From Escherichia phage ECML-10: a stretch of 64,000 nt of DNA. Below the pieces are notes generated by a model. It did not search any database, was not told the origin of the DNA, and worked only from the letters and a program-made list of their open reading frames with translations. Shown here piece by piece: positions 10,314 through 15,290 of this stretch. The stretch lies in the sequence record OL631479.1. The stretch is one strand, 5' to 3'. How positions within the stretch are numbered: position 1 is the stretch's first letter; each line of letters starts with the position of its first letter. The translations under genes and the position numbers were made by a program.

Positions 10314-10622
10314 ATGCTTAAAATTTTTATTGTTGAAGATAAAGATATTGTCCAGTTGTATGCAAACGAGAATCATAAAGGTATGATTCTGAAGAAGGCA
10401 AGCAACCTTCATGAAAACACAATTCAACCTGGCGATGTAATTAAGATCTGTGGTTATATGATACCAGACTCCTTGATGAAAATAACCCACCACTGGGGGT
10501 CTAATCCGTTCCTTTTTGAAAAGTATTGGGATGTTGAGTCACTTATTGCAGAGAGTGATGATGCATTCCATTACAGCATCCAACCATCTTGCAGAATAAC
10601 TAACAGGAGGGTCTTTGAGTAG
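10314..10622 (+). CDS. hypothetical protein (102 aa)
   Basis: ORF track; SD AGGAGAA. Confidence 0.5.
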   Translation: MLKIFIVEDKDIVQLYANENHKGMILKKASNLHENTIQPGDVIKICGYMIPDSLMKITHHWGSNPFLFEKYWDVESLIAESDDAFHYSIQPSCRITNRRVFE

Positions 10623-11754
10623 AGAATATCCACTTATTGAGTCCATAGATTGTCTGGCTGATCTTCTTGAACCTGACGCTATAGTTTATTATGACTTCGA
10701 TCAGGTTGCATATCAAGCTGCAGCAAGTTGTGAAAAAAGGACAATTGAGGTAACACACAAAGCCTCCGGACGTAAGAAGATGTTTAAAACACGAACAGAG
10801 TTCTGGGGGCGGCAGAAGAACACAGTTGGTGGTTGGTTAAAAGCTGAGAATACCAACCGTGAAGCTGCATGTAAAAAGGCTGGCAAGGAGTTTATTCCGT
10901 GGACACGAGAAGATTTCGATGTCTTGGATATCCAAACCCCTGATCCTGTAGAGAACTGCTTGCACACAATTAAGTGTAAAGCGAATGCAGTCCTTAATTA
11001 TCTCGGTATTCCGGAAGATCGGTGCGTGGGGGTACTTGGAGGCACAGGTAATTTCAGACTAGATCTTCCCATGCCGGAAAGATATAAAGCCAACCGTAAC
11101 AATACTCTTCGACCACTGCTGCTTGGAGATGCAAGACAGTATCTCCAAAAGCAGTATAATGCTCAAGTGATCAACGGTATCGAGGCTGACGACTGGTTAG
11201 CTATCCAGCAATTTGAAGGTTGGAACCACTACCAAAAAACAGGTAAGTTCAACAAGTTTATTATCTCTATTGATAAGGACCAAAGAACACTGCCGGGGCT
11301 TGTGTTCGATCCCATGCGAAACGATAAGGGAGATTTTGTAAGGGAAACCCCTATGCTGATCGATAACGGTATGGGGAACATCTTCATGAAGCCTAATGGA
11401 GAGGTTGGTGGTTACGGAATGCTGTTCTTCGGATACCAAATGCTGTGTGGTGACTCTGCCGACAATATCAAGCCGTATCAAGGACTTATCGGTAAGGGTA
11501 AGTTCGGGGATGCCTCAGCATTCTACCTACTGTCTCAGTGCAGCACTCCAAAGGAGATGTGGGTGGCTATTATTGATCAGTACAAGAAGTGGTTCCCGAA
11601 AGGTGTTGTTAAGTATACTGACTTCAATGGTGTTGATCGTAGAATTTCCGTAGGTCAATGGATGAGTATAATTTTTGACTGTTTGTATATGAAGCGAACA
11701 TTCAATGATCAAACAAAACTTGTTAACGTTCTTAGAAATGTTGGAGCAATTTGA
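10615..11754 (+). CDS. 5'-3' exonuclease / flap endonuclease (T5 D15-like)
   Basis: GIEADDWLAIQ, SIDKDQ, LCGDSADNIKPYQGLIGKGKFG match FEN motifs; TTG start with SD AGGAGG. Confidence 0.65.
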   Translation: MSREYPLIESIDCLADLLEPDAIVYYDFDQVAYQAAASCEKRTIEVTHKASGRKKMFKTRTEFWGRQKNTVGGWLKAENTNREAACKKAGKEFIPWTREDFDVLDIQTPDPVENCLHTIKCKANAVLNYLGIPEDRCVGVLGGTGNFRLDLPMPERYKANRNNTLRPLLLGDARQYLQKQYNAQVINGIEADDWLAIQQFEGWNHYQKTGKFNKFIISIDKDQRTLPGLVFDPMRNDKGDFVRETPMLIDNGMGNIFMKPNGEVGGYGMLFFGYQMLCGDSADNIKPYQGLIGKGKFGDASAFYLLSQCSTPKEMWVAIIDQYKKWFPKGVVKYTDFNGVDRRISVGQWMSIIFDCLYMKRTFNDQTKLVNVLRNVGAI

Positions 11755-12086
11755 TGACTAAAAATTCTGTAGATAGTGCAATTATGGAAGCTGTTTTTGA
11801 GGATGATCATACAACAGGGACACTTAAAACAAAAAATACATTCGTTGTTGCCACAGGTATGTGGCGGTTGTATGAAGATGACACCATTTCATACATCCTG
11901 TACACTGATGATTACGCAGATGACCGTGTATGGTCTGCTGTTTTAAAAGAGGATTGTGAACTGATTGAGGGCGAGCGGTTATGCATGTTCCCCAGTGTGG
12001 AAACAGATGTTAAGCTTTGCTCTCTCGTCTTGTTCAAAGATAAGGCTTATGCTCCTGATGAAGGAGAGGAGGATGAGGAAGTATGA
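11754..12086 (+). CDS. hypothetical acidic protein
   Basis: ORF track; ATG 11754. Confidence 0.5.
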   Translation: MTKNSVDSAIMEAVFEDDHTTGTLKTKNTFVVATGMWRLYEDDTISYILYTDDYADDRVWSAVLKEDCELIEGERLCMFPSVETDVKLCSLVLFKDKAYAPDEGEEDEEV

Positions 12087-12712
12087 GAGAGCGTCTATTA
12101 TCCATAGACCAGTCGTTGACACACACAGCTTGCGTTGTATGGGACGATGGAAAGCCTGTTCATAAGGTTGTGTTACGAACTCAAAGCTCATCTGCAAAAG
12201 AGAAGAAACCAGGGACGGTTTCTTTTGCAACAGCTGCTGAGCGTATTGACTGGATCTGCAAACAGGTCAGATATTATATCCACACGCACGGAGTTGACAC
12301 CGTGGTTATGGAAGGACTTTCCTTCGGATCTCGCGGGGATGCCACACGTGAACTGGCTGGGTTGTTTTACGGTCTCGAAGTTATGCTTTGGGATGCTTTA
12401 GCTGATTGTGAAAATGACGGCCTGTTTAAGGTTCACACAGTGACACCAACAACTGCCAAAAAGTTTGCTCGTAGTCATCTTCCTGAAGAACTTGCTTTTG
12501 AGGAGAAGAAAAAGCTTGACAAAAAGACAGGTAAAGAGCATACTGTGAAGAAACCTGTTACGATGGATAAAAAGTTGATGGTTAAGGCCTGCGAAGTATC
12601 TGAACCAGGGTTCCTAGATGGGATCAATTTGGTACAAGGTAAGGCCGATCTCGCAGATGCTTATTGGATAGGCAGGGCGCATCTGGAGGGGTTATCGCAA
12701 AGCGTAAAATAA
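12083..12712 (+). CDS. RuvC-like Holliday junction resolvase
   Basis: LSIDQSLTHTACVV, VVMEGLSFGSRG, KADLADAYWIGRAHL match RuvC catalytic D/E/D-containing motifs. Confidence 0.6.
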   Translation: MRERLLSIDQSLTHTACVVWDDGKPVHKVVLRTQSSSAKEKKPGTVSFATAAERIDWICKQVRYYIHTHGVDTVVMEGLSFGSRGDATRELAGLFYGLEVMLWDALADCENDGLFKVHTVTPTTAKKFARSHLPEELAFEEKKKLDKKTGKEHTVKKPVTMDKKLMVKACEVSEPGFLDGINLVQGKADLADAYWIGRAHLEGLSQSVK

Positions 12713-13269
12713 GAAAGAAAGCTGTCAAAGCCCCCGTTCATAGCGGGTGGCTAAAAGATTCTAAGGACATAGCCAACTTTCGAAAAGAATTGTCAGAGGA
12801 GCAGGATGGTCTTGATCCGATCTTGTGCGAGCCACTTCGTAAGCCTTGTTTAGATCATGATCATCTGACTGGTCGTTGCAGGGGTGTTTTGTCTCAGTGC
12901 ACTAATACCTTTGAGGGGTATGTGCTTAAATACTGGATGAAATACTGTAACGAGTATACAGATTGCAGTTTATCAGAGGCGTTGCGCCGGATGGCTGACT
13001 ATCTGGAGAAAGACTACAGCGACTTCCCGCTCCACAAAAACTACAGAGATGATATGACAAAGTTCTTGAGGAGATGCTCTAAAGCTACGATTATTGCACG
13101 AGCAGAATCAGATCTCAATCTTGTCATTAATCCAGAGTGCACCAAGCATGAGGCTATTGAGTCCTACATGCAGGAGTTTATAAAGAAAACTGAGGAGAGA
13201 GATTTCTATGGGGATGAAAAAGGTATTCAATCCTTGCGACTCAGTCCTGATCAGGATGAAATACCGTAA
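12664..13269 (+). CDS. endonuclease VII-family nuclease (T4 gp49-like)
   Basis: CEPLRKPCLDHDHLTGRCRGVLSQCTN motif; start uncertain (no ATG; TTG at 12664 overlaps upstream gene). Confidence 0.6.
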   Translation: MDRQGASGGVIAKRKIRKKAVKAPVHSGWLKDSKDIANFRKELSEEQDGLDPILCEPLRKPCLDHDHLTGRCRGVLSQCTNTFEGYVLKYWMKYCNEYTDCSLSEALRRMADYLEKDYSDFPLHKNYRDDMTKFLRRCSKATIIARAESDLNLVINPECTKHEAIESYMQEFIKKTEERDFYGDEKGIQSLRLSPDQDEIP

Positions 13270-13429
13270 CTGGAAAGGTGTTGTTGCAGATCGCTGCGTT
13301 ACTGAGCCTAATTTATGGTTTGGCTCTACAGAGTATCATAAAGAAGAGCAGTGGTTGATGCATGCCTTTGATGTAGACAAGGGCGAATATCGTGACTTCG
13401 CTTTAAAAGACATTCTTCAGTTTTACTAA
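13208..13429 (+). CDS. hypothetical protein (73 aa)
   Basis: SD GAGGAGAGAG before ATG 13208; overlaps 3' end of upstream gene by 62 nt. Confidence 0.4.
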   Translation: MGMKKVFNPCDSVLIRMKYRNWKGVVADRCVTEPNLWFGSTEYHKEEQWLMHAFDVDKGEYRDFALKDILQFY

Positions 13430-13441
13430 GGAATTTTGACG

Positions 13442-14425
13442 ATGATGGCAAAGTTAACTCTTGAGCAAATTTTAACACTAAAGCAGCAGGGATACACTAA
13501 TAGACAAATTGCTCGTGAATTTTTAGGCCGTGAGTCACGTGAGAGTTGGATCCGACTACAGCTTAAACGTGCACAAGAGAATATGTCAGAGATTGTAGGA
13601 GAAGCAACGGAGCGCTTCCTTGAAGAACACAAAGGAGCTAAAGTTTGGGTGTATGATACAGAAACATCACCAACAAACGGCTGGTTCTTTGGGCACTATA
13701 AGACCAACATTCAAACCTGCGGTATTGAAATTATGCCCTATATGCTAACTTTCGCAGGTAAGTGGTTAGACAGTCCTAGTGTGGTTGACTGCGCTCTTCC
13801 CGATTACAAAATGTGGGATGAGGATATTCACAATGACCTCGAATTGATTCAGGACTTGTGGTATTATCTGGATAAATGTGATGTCGCAGTAGCCCACAAT
13901 TCAGGTTTTGACTGTGGGTGGGCAAACCAACGATTTGCATTTCACGGGTTGCCTCCAACAAGCCCATACAAAGAGGTTGACACCCTTAAAATGATCAAGA
14001 AGGCATTCCGTTTGAATGCAAACACTTTGGAGTATGCATGCAAATACTTCCAACTTGCCAGACAGAAACTGATTGACCACACATTTGAAATGTGGATCAA
14101 GTGTGTTCATGGTGATCTTGAGGCGTTTAAACAGATGCGGGAGTACAATGTTGGTGATATCCTATCTCTGGAAGGCCTGTATTTGCTGGCACGCCCGTTT
14201 GCTAAGCAGCACCCCAACATGTCATTGTACTACCAGGATGAGGAGCCAAAAGTTCGTTGCCCACGCTGCGGTGGAGAACACCTTCACGAGGAAGAAGCTT
14301 TGGCGTATACTCAACTGAGTGCATTTAAAACATATCGCTGCGAAGGTTGTGGATCTGTTGTTCGTGACCGTAACAACATCCGTACCAGAGAAGAAATGAA
14401 AAACACCCTGATTCAGATAATCTAA
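13442..14425 (+). CDS. DEDD-family 3'-5' exonuclease with C-terminal zinc ribbon
   Basis: VYDTETS and AHNSGFD exonuclease motifs; CPRCGG...CEGCG; start moved to ATG 13442. Confidence 0.7.
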   Translation: MMAKLTLEQILTLKQQGYTNRQIAREFLGRESRESWIRLQLKRAQENMSEIVGEATERFLEEHKGAKVWVYDTETSPTNGWFFGHYKTNIQTCGIEIMPYMLTFAGKWLDSPSVVDCALPDYKMWDEDIHNDLELIQDLWYYLDKCDVAVAHNSGFDCGWANQRFAFHGLPPTSPYKEVDTLKMIKKAFRLNANTLEYACKYFQLARQKLIDHTFEMWIKCVHGDLEAFKQMREYNVGDILSLEGLYLLARPFAKQHPNMSLYYQDEEPKVRCPRCGGEHLHEEEALAYTQLSAFKTYRCEGCGSVVRDRNNIRTREEMKNTLIQII

Positions 14426-14434
14426 TCAAGTATA

Positions 14435-14458
14435 GGGAGGCTTGCGCCTCCCTTTTCC
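14435..14458 (+). terminator. rho-independent terminator
   Basis: GGGAGGC-TTGC-GCCTCCC followed by TTTTCCTTTT. Confidence 0.6.
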
Positions 14459-14471
14459 TTTTGGAGGCACT

Positions 14472-15290
14472 TTGAGCAAGAAAGAGTCCAACGACAAATA
14501 TTACACAAACCCTGAGTATGCAGAATATCTTGTTGGTAAAGTAAAAGATAAGTATGGAAATTGTGCATACGTTGAGCCTTCTGCTGGAAGGGGTTCTTTT
14601 TCAAAACTATTTTCAGAGATACTGTCTTACGATCTAGTACCAGATCCTGAATTTGAAGGACCAACACCGTGCATTCAGGCAAACTTCTTGGAGGTGCATC
14701 CCAAGGCAGATGTCTTCATAGGTAACCCACCATTTGGCAAGAATTCATCTTTAGCTTGCAAATTCTTTAACCATTGTGCATCATTGCTAGAGCTTGGAGG
14801 GGCTATAGCCTTCATCTTGCCACGGACATTTGAAAAAATATTTTTTGCAAACAAACTGGACATGTCGATGCACCTTGTCTACAGTGAAAGGTGCCCTAAG
14901 AACTCGTTTCTACTTAATGGCAAACCTTATGACGTGCCGTGTGTTTTCCAAATTTGGGAGAAAAAGGCGTGCAACAGGGATCCTGTAGAGATTGGGGAGA
15001 ATAAGTTATTTTCTTTTAGCACTCCAGATGACTACGACTTCTGTGTAAGACGTGTTGGGTATAATGCTGGAAAAGTATTGGGGGAGGATGACCCAAAATC
15101 TGAAGAATCAACATATTTCATAAAATCTTTAGTTGACGGTGTTGACAGAGTGTTTGCTGAATGCTATTCTTCTTTTCAAGAAGAAGCAGGTAAGACTGCC
15201 GGAATGAAGAGTATAGGTAAGAAAGAACTACAATACATTTTGGAGACTAGGTATGATCAAAAGCATAGACTTGACCAAAGAACTTACTGA
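14472..15290 (+). CDS. DNA N6-adenine methyltransferase
   Basis: Motif I VEPSAGRGSF, motif IV GNPPFG, YYTNPE; start set to TTG 14472 (SD GGAGG) because track start lies inside the terminator hairpin. Confidence 0.65.
   Translation: MSKKESNDKYYTNPEYAEYLVGKVKDKYGNCAYVEPSAGRGSFSKLFSEILSYDLVPDPEFEGPTPCIQANFLEVHPKADVFIGNPPFGKNSSLACKFFNHCASLLELGGAIAFILPRTFEKIFFANKLDMSMHLVYSERCPKNSFLLNGKPYDVPCVFQIWEKKACNRDPVEIGENKLFSFSTPDDYDFCVRRVGYNAGKVLGEDDPKSEESTYFIKSLVDGVDRVFAECYSSFQEEAGKTAGMKSIGKKELQYILETRYDQKHRLDQRTY

What the first reader, a model, noticed from the sequence alone, without database searches (positions are those of the whole stretch)
12083..13269. Two different Holliday-junction resolvase families encoded back to back
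A RuvC-fold resolvase (12083-12712) is immediately followed by, and overlaps, an endonuclease VII-family gene (12664-13269, motif CxxC...DHDH.TG.CRG). Phages usually carry one or the other. The Endo VII frame has no ATG start and overlaps the RuvC 3' end by 49 nt, so it may be expressed by an unusual start or frameshift, or it may be decaying.
Basis: partly seen in the sequence, partly recalled or inferred. Interest (0 to 1): 0.45.

Follow-up and report, generated by a model that had tools for sequence, protein, structure and literature searches.

The report
Two coupled resolvase genes, non-AUG start
An rV5-like E. coli phage encodes two intact DNA-junction-cutting enzymes side by side (a RuvC type and a T4 endonuclease VII type), and the second most likely starts at a rare, weak AUC start codon, which would keep this potentially toxic nuclease at low levels.

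Summary
The window is a Vequintavirus (rV5-like, 99.9% identical to phage ime). Both genes are real and intact. ORF 12083-12712 has a RuvC fold with all four catalytic acidic residues. The 12664-13269 frame is a full-length T4 endonuclease VII homologue with its catalytic residues conserved, but it has no CxxC motif and lacks the zinc ligands. The pair is conserved in this order in 24 of 25 relatives down to about 41% endo VII identity, and dN/dS is 0.03-0.05, so neither gene is decaying. The annotated TTG start (12664) is almost certainly wrong: three close relatives, two of them isolated phages, carry an in-frame TAG three codons after it, and it has no Shine-Dalgarno sequence. Eight divergent lineages instead conserve GGAGG, 4-7 nt, then ATC or ATA, followed by a basic tail. 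In the window these are GGAGG 12685-12689 and ATC 12694. Other lineages have ATG, GTG or TTG at the homologous codon. No conserved slippery site exists, and two lineages have a stop codon directly before the ATC, which excludes a frameshift fusion there. My best reading is a translationally coupled two-nuclease module in which endo VII starts at a weak near-cognate codon. The gene pair is already in public annotations; the start codon inference appears new and has not been tested experimentally.

The parts
12083..12712 (+). RuvC-like junction resolvase gene (209 aa). The ATG start overlaps the stop of the upstream ORF as ATGA.
   Evidence: phrog_159 E 3e-39; AF2 pLDDT 91.8; Foldseek top hits RuvC 7xhj, 4ld0 and 1hjr, with phage bIL67 RuvC 4ktw lower; four distant family members hit Pfam RuvC PF02075
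12107..12109 (+). RuvC-like catalytic Asp9. The other acidic residues are E77 (12311-12313), D189 (12647-12649) and D192 (12656-12658).
   Evidence: E77, D189 and D192 are invariant and D9 nearly invariant across 32 homologues
12664..12666 (+). TTG used as the endo VII start in most GenBank records; rejected here as the functional start
   Evidence: No Shine-Dalgarno sequence upstream. ECP2303, B9-1 and L004 have TAG three codons downstream, through the change 12673 C>T, which is synonymous in RuvC. The four variable sites in 12664-12693 are all non-synonymous or a stop in this frame.
12685..12689 (+). Shine-Dalgarno sequence GGAGG, 4 nt upstream of the proposed start
   Evidence: GGAGG or AGGAGG sits at this spacing before ATC/ATA in most ATH-start lineages. 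The motif GGAGG-N4-ATH occurs only 5 times in the 64-kb window on both strands, and only this copy heads a long ORF.
12694..12696 (+). Proposed endo VII start codon, ATC (near-cognate)
   Evidence: ATC or ATA at the homologous position in 8 lineages; ATG, GTG or TTG there in others. In-frame stops sit immediately before the ATC in L020 and in Vibrio phage 496E54-1.
12694..13269 (+). Endonuclease VII gene as re-delimited here (191 aa including the start codon)
   Evidence: PF02945; AF2 pLDDT 88; the only significant PDB fold hits are T4 endo VII at TM 0.69-0.75; hhalign probability 98%; dN/dS 0.047 against L004
12694..12712 (+). Dual-coding overlap: the RuvC-like 3' end and the endo VII 5' end
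   Evidence: No variable sites among 8 Vequintavirus sequences, against 18% variable sites in the RuvC-only part
12697..12747 (+). Basic N-terminal tail of endo VII (AKRKIRKKAVKAPVHSG), absent from T4 gp49
   Evidence: A K/R-rich tail is present in all lineages. Variation is mostly synonymous in this frame. Tail dN/dS is 0.05-0.18 in the Seunavirus/Mydovirus group.
12853..12915 (+). Endo VII His-Me finger catalytic core: D64, H65, H67 (12853-12864), N81 (12904-12906) and E84 (12913-12915), numbered on the 201-aa frame
   Evidence: D64, H65, H67 and N81 are invariant and E84 at least 90% conserved in 42 homologues; they align to T4 D40, H41, H43, N62 and E65

Best explanation
This is a conserved, translationally coupled two-nuclease module in the replication/recombination operon of an rV5-like phage. 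The first gene encodes a RuvC-fold junction resolvase. The second encodes a zinc-less T4-type endonuclease VII with an extra basic N-terminal tail. Shown here: both folds, both sets of catalytic residues, the synteny and the purifying selection. Inferred from comparative evidence: endo VII translation does not start at the annotated TTG 12664. It starts at AUC 12694, placed 4 nt after a strong GGAGG and inside the last 19 nt of the RuvC-like gene. Ribosomes translating or terminating on the upstream gene would therefore feed a deliberately weak start codon. AUC and AUA initiate at about 1-2% of AUG in E. coli. The result would be a low endo VII output tied to that of the RuvC-like protein. Inferred from the families only: both enzymes cut branched DNA. 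The endo VII probably acts as a scarce, broad-specificity debranching and packaging nuclease, like T4 gp49, and the RuvC-like enzyme resolves recombination and replication junctions.
For: Identity of the two genes. Synteny: RuvC-like followed by endo VII in 24 of 25 relatives, L004-L028, with endo VII identity falling from 91% to 41%, and in annotated genera Seunavirus, Mydovirus, Henunavirus and Certrevirus, a Vibrio phage and an Aeromonas phage. Selection: dN/dS 0.034 for RuvC-like and 0.047 for endo VII. Start codon: (1) ECP2303, B9-1 and L004 carry TAG three codons after the TTG. (2) Between TTG and ATC, the four variable sites are all synonymous in RuvC and non-synonymous or a stop in the endo frame. 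The stretch from ATC to the RuvC stop has no variation, and variation downstream is mostly synonymous in the endo frame. (3) Eight lineages have a Shine-Dalgarno sequence, 4-7 nt, then ATC/ATA and a basic tract, with no usable canonical start upstream of the tract in most of them. Other lineages have ATG, GTG or TTG at the homologous codon. (4) L020 and Vibrio phage 496E54-1 have a stop codon directly before the ATC. (5) The RuvC stop lies within -2 to +16 nt of the ATH in every ATH lineage. (6) GenBank annotators place the start at four different positions or omit the gene, and phage Mangalyan annotates no RBS for it. Precedent: AUA, AUC and AUU initiate at 1-2% of AUG in E. coli, with N-terminal Met confirmed for AUC (bioRxiv 10.1101/063800). 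Conserved AUU/AUA starts with strong start-proximal Shine-Dalgarno sequences attenuate expression in S. aureus (bioRxiv 10.1101/2025.06.19.660503).
Against: There is no direct evidence of initiation at AUC 12694: no proteomics, ribosome profiling or reporter data. In this phage the TTG 12664 frame is open, so some initiation there cannot be excluded. An ATA at 12709 overlaps the RuvC stop as ATAA and could be a reinitiation codon instead. The 4-nt spacing after GGAGG is at the short end of the functional range. The GG-x-I conservation in the endo frame is confounded with RuvC-frame coding (motif EG[LIV]S), although lineages in which RuvC ends earlier keep the Shine-Dalgarno sequence and ATH as well. 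The lineages are related, so conservation counts are not independent events. The nuclease activities and the division of labour between the two enzymes are inferred from homology only.
Confidence: 0.68

Rival explanations
1. Endo VII starts at the annotated TTG 12664, giving a 201-aa protein that overlaps RuvC-like by 49 nt.
For: The frame is open from 12643 in this phage, and TTG is a canonical start. Most GenBank records annotate it this way.
Against: There is no Shine-Dalgarno sequence within 20 nt. ECP2303, B9-1 and L004 have an in-frame TAG three codons later. The four variable sites between TTG and ATC are non-synonymous or a stop in this frame. No equivalent start exists in Seunavirus, Mydovirus, Henunavirus or the other lineages.
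Confidence: 0.1
2. Translation reinitiates at ATA 12709, which overlaps the RuvC stop as ATAA. It is still a non-canonical start, five codons downstream of the ATC.
For: An ATAA or ATAG start/stop overlap is exactly the arrangement in L018, L019, L027 and L028, and an ATA overlaps the stop in the Mydovirus group.
Against: In the window the GGAGG is 19 nt upstream of this ATA. The equivalent codon is GTA in Seunavirus and in the L005-L010 lineages, while ATC with its Shine-Dalgarno sequence is kept.
Confidence: 0.1
3. Endo VII starts at the downstream TTG 12790, as annotated in ECP2303 and Mangalyan. This gives a 159-aa protein without the basic tail and without most of helix 1.
For: It is the first canonical start after the RuvC stop, and some annotators use it.
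Against: It has no Shine-Dalgarno sequence, and Mangalyan annotates no RBS for it. It would remove the conserved W and the nearly invariant R40. Variation upstream of it is mostly synonymous in the endo frame. Tail dN/dS is 0.05-0.18. The codon is not a start in other lineages.
Confidence: 0.06
4. A programmed -1 ribosomal frameshift produces a RuvC-endo VII fusion protein.
For: Endo VII is in the -1 frame relative to RuvC in most lineages and overlaps its 3' end. An internal Shine-Dalgarno-like element can stimulate frameshifting, as in dnaX and prfB (established knowledge). A run A_AAA_TAA precedes the RuvC stop in the window.
Against: No X_XXY_YYZ heptamer lies in the overlap in 13 of 14 lineages. 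The overlap window is 4 nt in L020 and 8 nt in the Vibrio phage, where the required shift is +1 rather than -1. Lineages with another gene inserted between the two, or with no RuvC upstream, keep the same N-terminus with a canonical start.
Confidence: 0.03
5. The endo VII frame is a decaying pseudogene that has lost its start.
For: There is no ATG and the gene calls are inconsistent.
Against: The frame is intact in every relative examined here. About 120 Vequintavirus records hold near-identical DNA of this region, but their reading frames were not individually checked. dN/dS is 0.047, the catalytic residues are invariant, and the full-length fold is predicted with confidence.
Confidence: 0.01

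Closest known systems
T4 gp49 endonuclease VII (PDB 1en7, 1e7l, 2qnf; Pfam PF02945)
   Same: The match is collinear over T4 residues 10-153. It has the same His-Me finger core, with D40, H41, H43, N62 and E65 equivalents conserved, and the same C-terminal helical domain. T4 gene 49 is also under special translational control, producing two nested products (Barth et al. 1988, cited in PMC2988022).
   Different: The four zinc ligands are replaced by D, L, S and T/V. There is an extra 18-34-residue basic N-terminal tail. The likely start codon is AUC/AUA. The gene is coupled to an upstream RuvC-like gene, whereas T4 has no RuvC-type resolvase (own knowledge).
Bacterial RuvC and lactococcal phage bIL67 RuvC (PDB 1hjr, 4ld0, 4ktw; Pfam PF02075)
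   Same: It has the RNase H-like RuvC fold (TM 0.72-0.79 normalised to the target) and all four catalytic acidic residues.
   Different: It falls below the Pfam threshold on its own. It has an insertion of about 35 residues that forms a beta-hairpin. It is encoded next to a second resolvase.
Natural non-canonical start codons used for attenuation: E. coli infC and pcnB (AUU); S. aureus infC, ccpN and cvfC1 (AUA/AUU)
   Same: A near-cognate AUH codon preceded by a strong, start-proximal Shine-Dalgarno sequence, conserved across relatives, is expected to cut initiation to a few percent of AUG.
   Different: Here the evidence is comparative only. The codon is AUC or AUA rather than AUU. The site lies inside the 3' end of the upstream gene, giving a coupling geometry. 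Homologous genes in sister lineages use AUG, GUG or UUG.
Overlapping stop/start translational coupling (ATGA or TAATG junctions)
   Same: The upstream stop lies within -2 to +16 nt of the start in every lineage. Serratia phage ChuuTotoro has a classical TAATG junction between the same two genes.
   Different: In most lineages the coupled start codon is ATA or ATC (junctions ATAA and ATAG) instead of ATG.

Membership tests
RuvC-type Holliday junction resolvase (RNase H-like fold, PF02075) | RuvC-type RNase H-like fold | tested here: met
   AF2 pLDDT 91.8. The Foldseek top 11 PDB hits are bacterial RuvC, E 1e-7, TM 0.72-0.79 normalised to the target; bIL67 RuvC is also hit.
RuvC-type Holliday junction resolvase (RNase H-like fold, PF02075) | Four catalytic acidic residues (E. 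coli D7, E66, D138, D141) | tested here: met
   D9, E77, D189 and D192 are conserved in 32 homologues. The correspondence to E. coli numbering rests on motif position (own knowledge).
RuvC-type Holliday junction resolvase (RNase H-like fold, PF02075) | Sequence match to the Pfam RuvC model above threshold | tested here: not met
   The window protein has no Pfam hit. Four distant members of its family hit PF02075, best E 1.8e-6. It does match phrog_159 'RuvC-like' at E 3e-39.
RuvC-type Holliday junction resolvase (RNase H-like fold, PF02075) | Homodimer that cleaves four-way junctions | not testable with these tools
   Needs biochemistry.
Endonuclease VII (T4 gp49, PF02945) | Pfam model match above the gathering score | tested here: met
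   31.7 bits against a 23.6 cut-off; phrog_423 E 3e-37.
Endonuclease VII (T4 gp49, PF02945) | His-Me finger catalytic residues D40, H41, H43, N62, E65 | tested here: met
   D64, H65, H67, N81 and E84 are invariant or nearly invariant and align to the T4 residues.
Endonuclease VII (T4 gp49, PF02945) | Structural zinc site (C23, C26, C58, C61) | tested here: not met
   These positions align to D, L, S and T/V. Most distant environmental homologues also lack the cysteines.
Endonuclease VII (T4 gp49, PF02945) | Full two-domain architecture, including the C-terminal helical domain | tested here: met
   phmmer alignment covers T4 residues 37-153; Foldseek aligns 152-157 columns at TM 0.69-0.75.
Endonuclease VII (T4 gp49, PF02945) | Domain-swapped dimer that cleaves junctions, mismatches and branches | not testable with these tools
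   Needs biochemistry.
Genes with a conserved non-canonical (AUH) start codon | No usable canonical start upstream of conserved coding sequence | tested here: met
   In-frame stops follow the TTG in 3 close relatives. L009-L014, L016, L018-L020, L028 and L089 have no ATG, GTG or TTG before the basic tract.
Genes with a conserved non-canonical (AUH) start codon | Shine-Dalgarno sequence at functional spacing, conserved with the codon | tested here: met
   GGAGG or AGGAGG lies 4 nt upstream in most ATH lineages; the spacing is 5 nt in L020 and 7 nt in L089, and L016 and L018 have only a GGGGG run.
Genes with a conserved non-canonical (AUH) start codon | Direct evidence of initiation (N-terminal peptide, toeprint or initiation profiling) | not testable with these tools
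   No such data were found in the searched literature.
Programmed -1 ribosomal frameshift fusion | Conserved slippery heptamer in the overlap, with a constant frame relation | tested here: not met
   No heptamer in 13 of 14 lineages. The overlap is only 4-8 nt in two lineages, and the Vibrio phage needs a +1 shift.

The most novel reading that the evidence does not exclude
Across much of the Vequintavirinae, and in at least one related Vibrio phage, the endonuclease VII gene naturally starts at AUC or AUA, coupled to termination of the upstream RuvC-like gene. Sister lineages use AUG, GUG or UUG at the same codon. This would be a natural evolutionary series in which start-codon strength sets the dose of a toxic structure-specific nuclease relative to a second resolvase. 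It would be one of very few natural AUC/AUA starts in E. coli-infecting systems, and about 120 GenBank records would have this gene's start mis-annotated.
Probability: 0.6. Interest if true: 0.6.

Novelty: new variant of a known kind. Interest (0 to 1): 0.5.

Why it matters
Confirmed natural non-AUG/GUG/UUG starts are very rare in E. coli; only infC and pcnB are established. A phage gene family that switches between AUC/AUA and canonical starts at one homologous codon would give a testable natural system for how start-codon strength and coupling set the dose of a dangerous nuclease. It would also correct the inconsistent annotation of this gene, which is placed at four different starts or missed entirely, in rV5-like phages that are widely used as therapeutic and typing phages. 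Finally, the strict conservation of two different junction resolvases side by side raises a clear functional question: how is the work divided between recombination and replication junctions on one side and debranching before packaging on the other? Single-gene knockouts could answer it.

Tried and rejected
1. A -1 frameshift fusion. There is no conserved slippery heptamer, the overlap window is only 4-8 nt in two lineages, and the frame relation is not constant.

2. A pseudogene. dN/dS is about 0.05 and the catalytic residues are invariant.

3. An RNA hairpin at 12643-12693 that sequesters the Shine-Dalgarno sequence as a conserved coupling device. It folds in the window (z -1.85) but is not conserved in other lineages, whose z-scores are unremarkable.

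4. A phage-encoded tRNA that could decode AUC/AUA as a start. No tRNA gene was found in the 64-kb window; the rest of the genome was not examined.

5. A genome-wide habit of ATH starts. Only this one of the five GGAGG-N4-ATH sites in the window heads a long ORF.

6. An internal sigma-70 promoter for endo VII. A weak consensus match at 12516-12544 is not above the background of this scan, so I did not pursue it.

7. A zinc site at alternative cysteines. No set of four conserved Cys or His ligands exists in the family.

8. Sequence-only searches of the PDB and NCBIfam for the RuvC-like protein gave nothing significant. Structure prediction was needed.

9. Literature searches found no paper discussing the paired resolvases or the start codon in rV5-like phages. 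Barth et al. 1988 on T4 gene 49 is not held in the library.

Full report
**Origin and observation.** The region 10600-14500 is 99.9% identical to Escherichia phage ime, and about 120 other rV5-like phages (genus Vequintavirus) match it. The ORF list confirms both frames at the stated coordinates. One is an ATG ORF at 12083-12712 (209 aa). The other is a frame open from 12643 whose first canonical start is TTG 12664 and which ends at 13269. That frame is -1 relative to the first and overlaps it by 49 nt. GenBank records call the first gene 'RNaseH', 'hypothetical protein' or 'Holliday junction resolvase', and the second 'EndoVII packaging and recombination endonuclease'. The gene pair itself is therefore already in public annotation.

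**The RuvC-like protein.** ORF1 has no Pfam hit of its own and no sequence-level PDB hit. It matches phrog_159 'RuvC-like Holliday junction resolvase' at E 3e-39, and four distant members of its family reach Pfam RuvC PF02075.
- An AlphaFold2 model built on 32 homologues is confident (pLDDT 91.8).
- Its best PDB matches are bacterial RuvC structures 7xhj, 4ld0, 6lw3 and 1hjr, with TM 0.72-0.79 normalised to the target. Phage bIL67 RuvC (4ktw) is also hit.
- The acidic residues D9, E77, D189 and D192 are conserved throughout.
- An insertion of about 35 residues forms an extra beta-hairpin.

**The endonuclease VII homologue.** ORF2 passes the Pfam Endonuclease_7 threshold (31.7 against 23.6 bits). 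It aligns collinearly with T4 gp49 (phmmer over T4 residues 37-153; hhalign probability 98% over residues 10-153).
- Its AlphaFold2 model (pLDDT 88) has T4 endo VII as its only significant PDB matches (TM 0.69-0.75).
- The catalytic equivalents of T4 D40, H41, H43, N62 and E65 are invariant or nearly invariant in 42 homologues.
The four T4 zinc ligands align to D, L, S and T/V.
- Most distant environmental homologues also lack them, so this gene belongs to a broad zinc-less branch of the family.

**Conservation of the pair.** A scan of IMG/VR returned 25 loci with endo VII identity between 91% and 41% (L004-L028). In 24 of them a RuvC-like gene lies directly upstream, or one inserted gene away. 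The same order is annotated in Seunavirus, Mydovirus, Henunavirus, Certrevirus, a marine Vibrio phage and Aeromonas phages. Against L004, dN/dS is 0.034 for the RuvC-like gene and 0.047 for endo VII. Neither gene is decaying.

**Evidence within the genus against the annotated start.** Annotators disagree. They place the start at the 12664 equivalent, the 12790 equivalent, an internal ATG or a downstream GTG, or they do not call the gene at all. Phage Mangalyan, which annotates ribosome-binding sites for neighbouring genes, gives none for this one.
- The isolates ECP2303 and B9-1 and the contig L004 carry 12673 C>T. This change is synonymous in RuvC and creates TAG three codons after the TTG. 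The TTG cannot be the functional start in those phages.
- Among 8 Vequintavirus sequences, the four variable sites in 12664-12693 are all synonymous in the RuvC frame and non-synonymous or a stop in the endo frame.
- The 19 nt from ATC 12694 to the RuvC stop show no variation, against 18% variable sites in the rest of the RuvC gene.
- Downstream of the RuvC stop, variation is mostly synonymous in the endo frame, including the stretch upstream of TTG 12790.
- Dual coding therefore appears to begin at 12694.

**Evidence across lineages for an ATC/ATA start.** Eight divergent lineages share one pattern: a Shine-Dalgarno sequence, usually GGAGG or AGGAGG, followed after 4-7 nt by ATC or ATA, often an Ala codon, and then a K/R-rich tract. 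In most of them no ATG, GTG or TTG precedes the tract.
- The eight lineages are Vequintavirus, the L005-L008 group, Seunavirus/Mydovirus, L016, Henunavirus, L020, L027/L028 and Vibrio phage 496E54-1.
- In L020 and in the Vibrio phage, a stop codon in the endo frame directly precedes the ATC.
- Other lineages have a canonical start at exactly the homologous position before the basic tract:
  - ATG in L017, L022, UPEC06 and Serratia ChuuTotoro (where the junction is TAATG);
  - GTG in the Certrevirus-like group;
  - TTG in PBES02 and in the Aeromonas phages.
- The tail is under purifying selection in the endo frame, with dN/dS 0.05-0.18.
- In every ATH lineage, the stop of the upstream gene lies within -2 to +16 nt of the ATH. 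In four of them the junction is ATAA or ATAG.
- The motif GGAGG-N4-ATH occurs five times in the 64-kb window, no more than chance. Only the endo VII copy heads a long ORF that lacks a better start.

**Rivals.** A -1 frameshift fusion is not supported. Thirteen of 14 lineages have no slippery heptamer, the permissible window is 4 nt in L020 and 8 nt in the Vibrio phage (which would need a +1 shift), and lineages without an adjacent RuvC gene keep the same N-terminus. A start at TTG 12790 would delete conserved residues and has no Shine-Dalgarno sequence. An ATA at 12709 overlapping the RuvC stop is a possible alternative or additional reinitiation codon, and it is also non-canonical. A hairpin that pairs the Shine-Dalgarno sequence in the window is not conserved. 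No tRNA gene lies in the window.

**Mechanism.** Shown here are the two intact, selected nuclease genes of the RuvC and endo VII folds in a conserved, overlapping arrangement. Inferred from comparative genomics is that endo VII starts at AUC 12694, using the GGAGG at 12685-12689, coupled to translation of the RuvC-like gene. In E. coli, AUC and AUA initiate at about 1-2% of AUG and still insert Met. Conserved AUU/AUA starts paired with strong start-proximal Shine-Dalgarno sequences act as attenuators in S. aureus. The expected effect is a low endo VII output at a fixed ratio to the RuvC-like protein. That is plausible for a broad-specificity branch nuclease, and T4 gene 49 is likewise under special translational control (Barth et al. 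1988, cited). The biochemical roles of the two enzymes are inferred from their families only.

**Verdict.** The 'unusual start' reading is supported, and the frameshift and decay readings are not. The gene pair is already annotated, but the conserved near-cognate start appears not to have been described. I rate it a new variant of known kinds, with interest about 0.5.

Noticed in passing
window 13208-13429 (+): A small ORF (73 aa, phrog_3715, weak WYL/Sm-like Pfam hits) overlaps the endo VII 3' end by 62 nt. The last 16 residues of endo VII have pLDDT below 50. In phage FV3 and in L004 the endo VII gene stops 10 codons earlier, and annotators start the small ORF at two different positions.
   Followed up: partly
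GenBank records MG065644, MG065647, MG065658 and others: Twenty records named 'Campylobacter phage', with host given as C. jejuni, match this E. coli rV5-like region at roughly 97-100% identity where individually listed. The host label looks doubtful.
   Followed up: no
window 12083-12712, protein residues ~135-160: The RuvC-like protein has a lysine-rich insertion of about 35 residues, predicted as a beta-hairpin. It is absent from the shorter relatives P0079-P0082 and from bacterial RuvC, and may be an extra DNA-binding element.
   Followed up: partly
loci L029-L083 (IMG/VR): Most distant endo VII-like proteins in environmental phage contigs lack both CxxC pairs; only L066, L080 and L081 keep them. 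Zinc-less endo VII is therefore a large branch and not specific to this phage group.
   Followed up: partly
window 10615-14425 (+): The whole module runs exonuclease, small ORF, RuvC-like, endo VII, small ORF, DnaQ-like exonuclease. The upstream genes are chained by overlapping stop/start junctions (11751/11754, and ATGA at 12083-12086), which suggests one translationally coupled operon.
   Followed up: partly
window 12643-12693 (+): A predicted RNA hairpin (-21 kcal/mol in a 70-nt context) pairs the GGAGG of the proposed endo VII ribosome-binding site with the DLADA-coding segment of RuvC. It is not conserved in other lineages.
   Followed up: yes
window 14434-14453 (+) and 14442-15290 (+): A terminator-like GC-rich hairpin followed by a T-run sits right at the listed TTG start (14442) of the N6-adenine methyltransferase ORF, whereas GenBank records start that gene about 30 nt further downstream. 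Its true start may also need checking.
   Followed up: no
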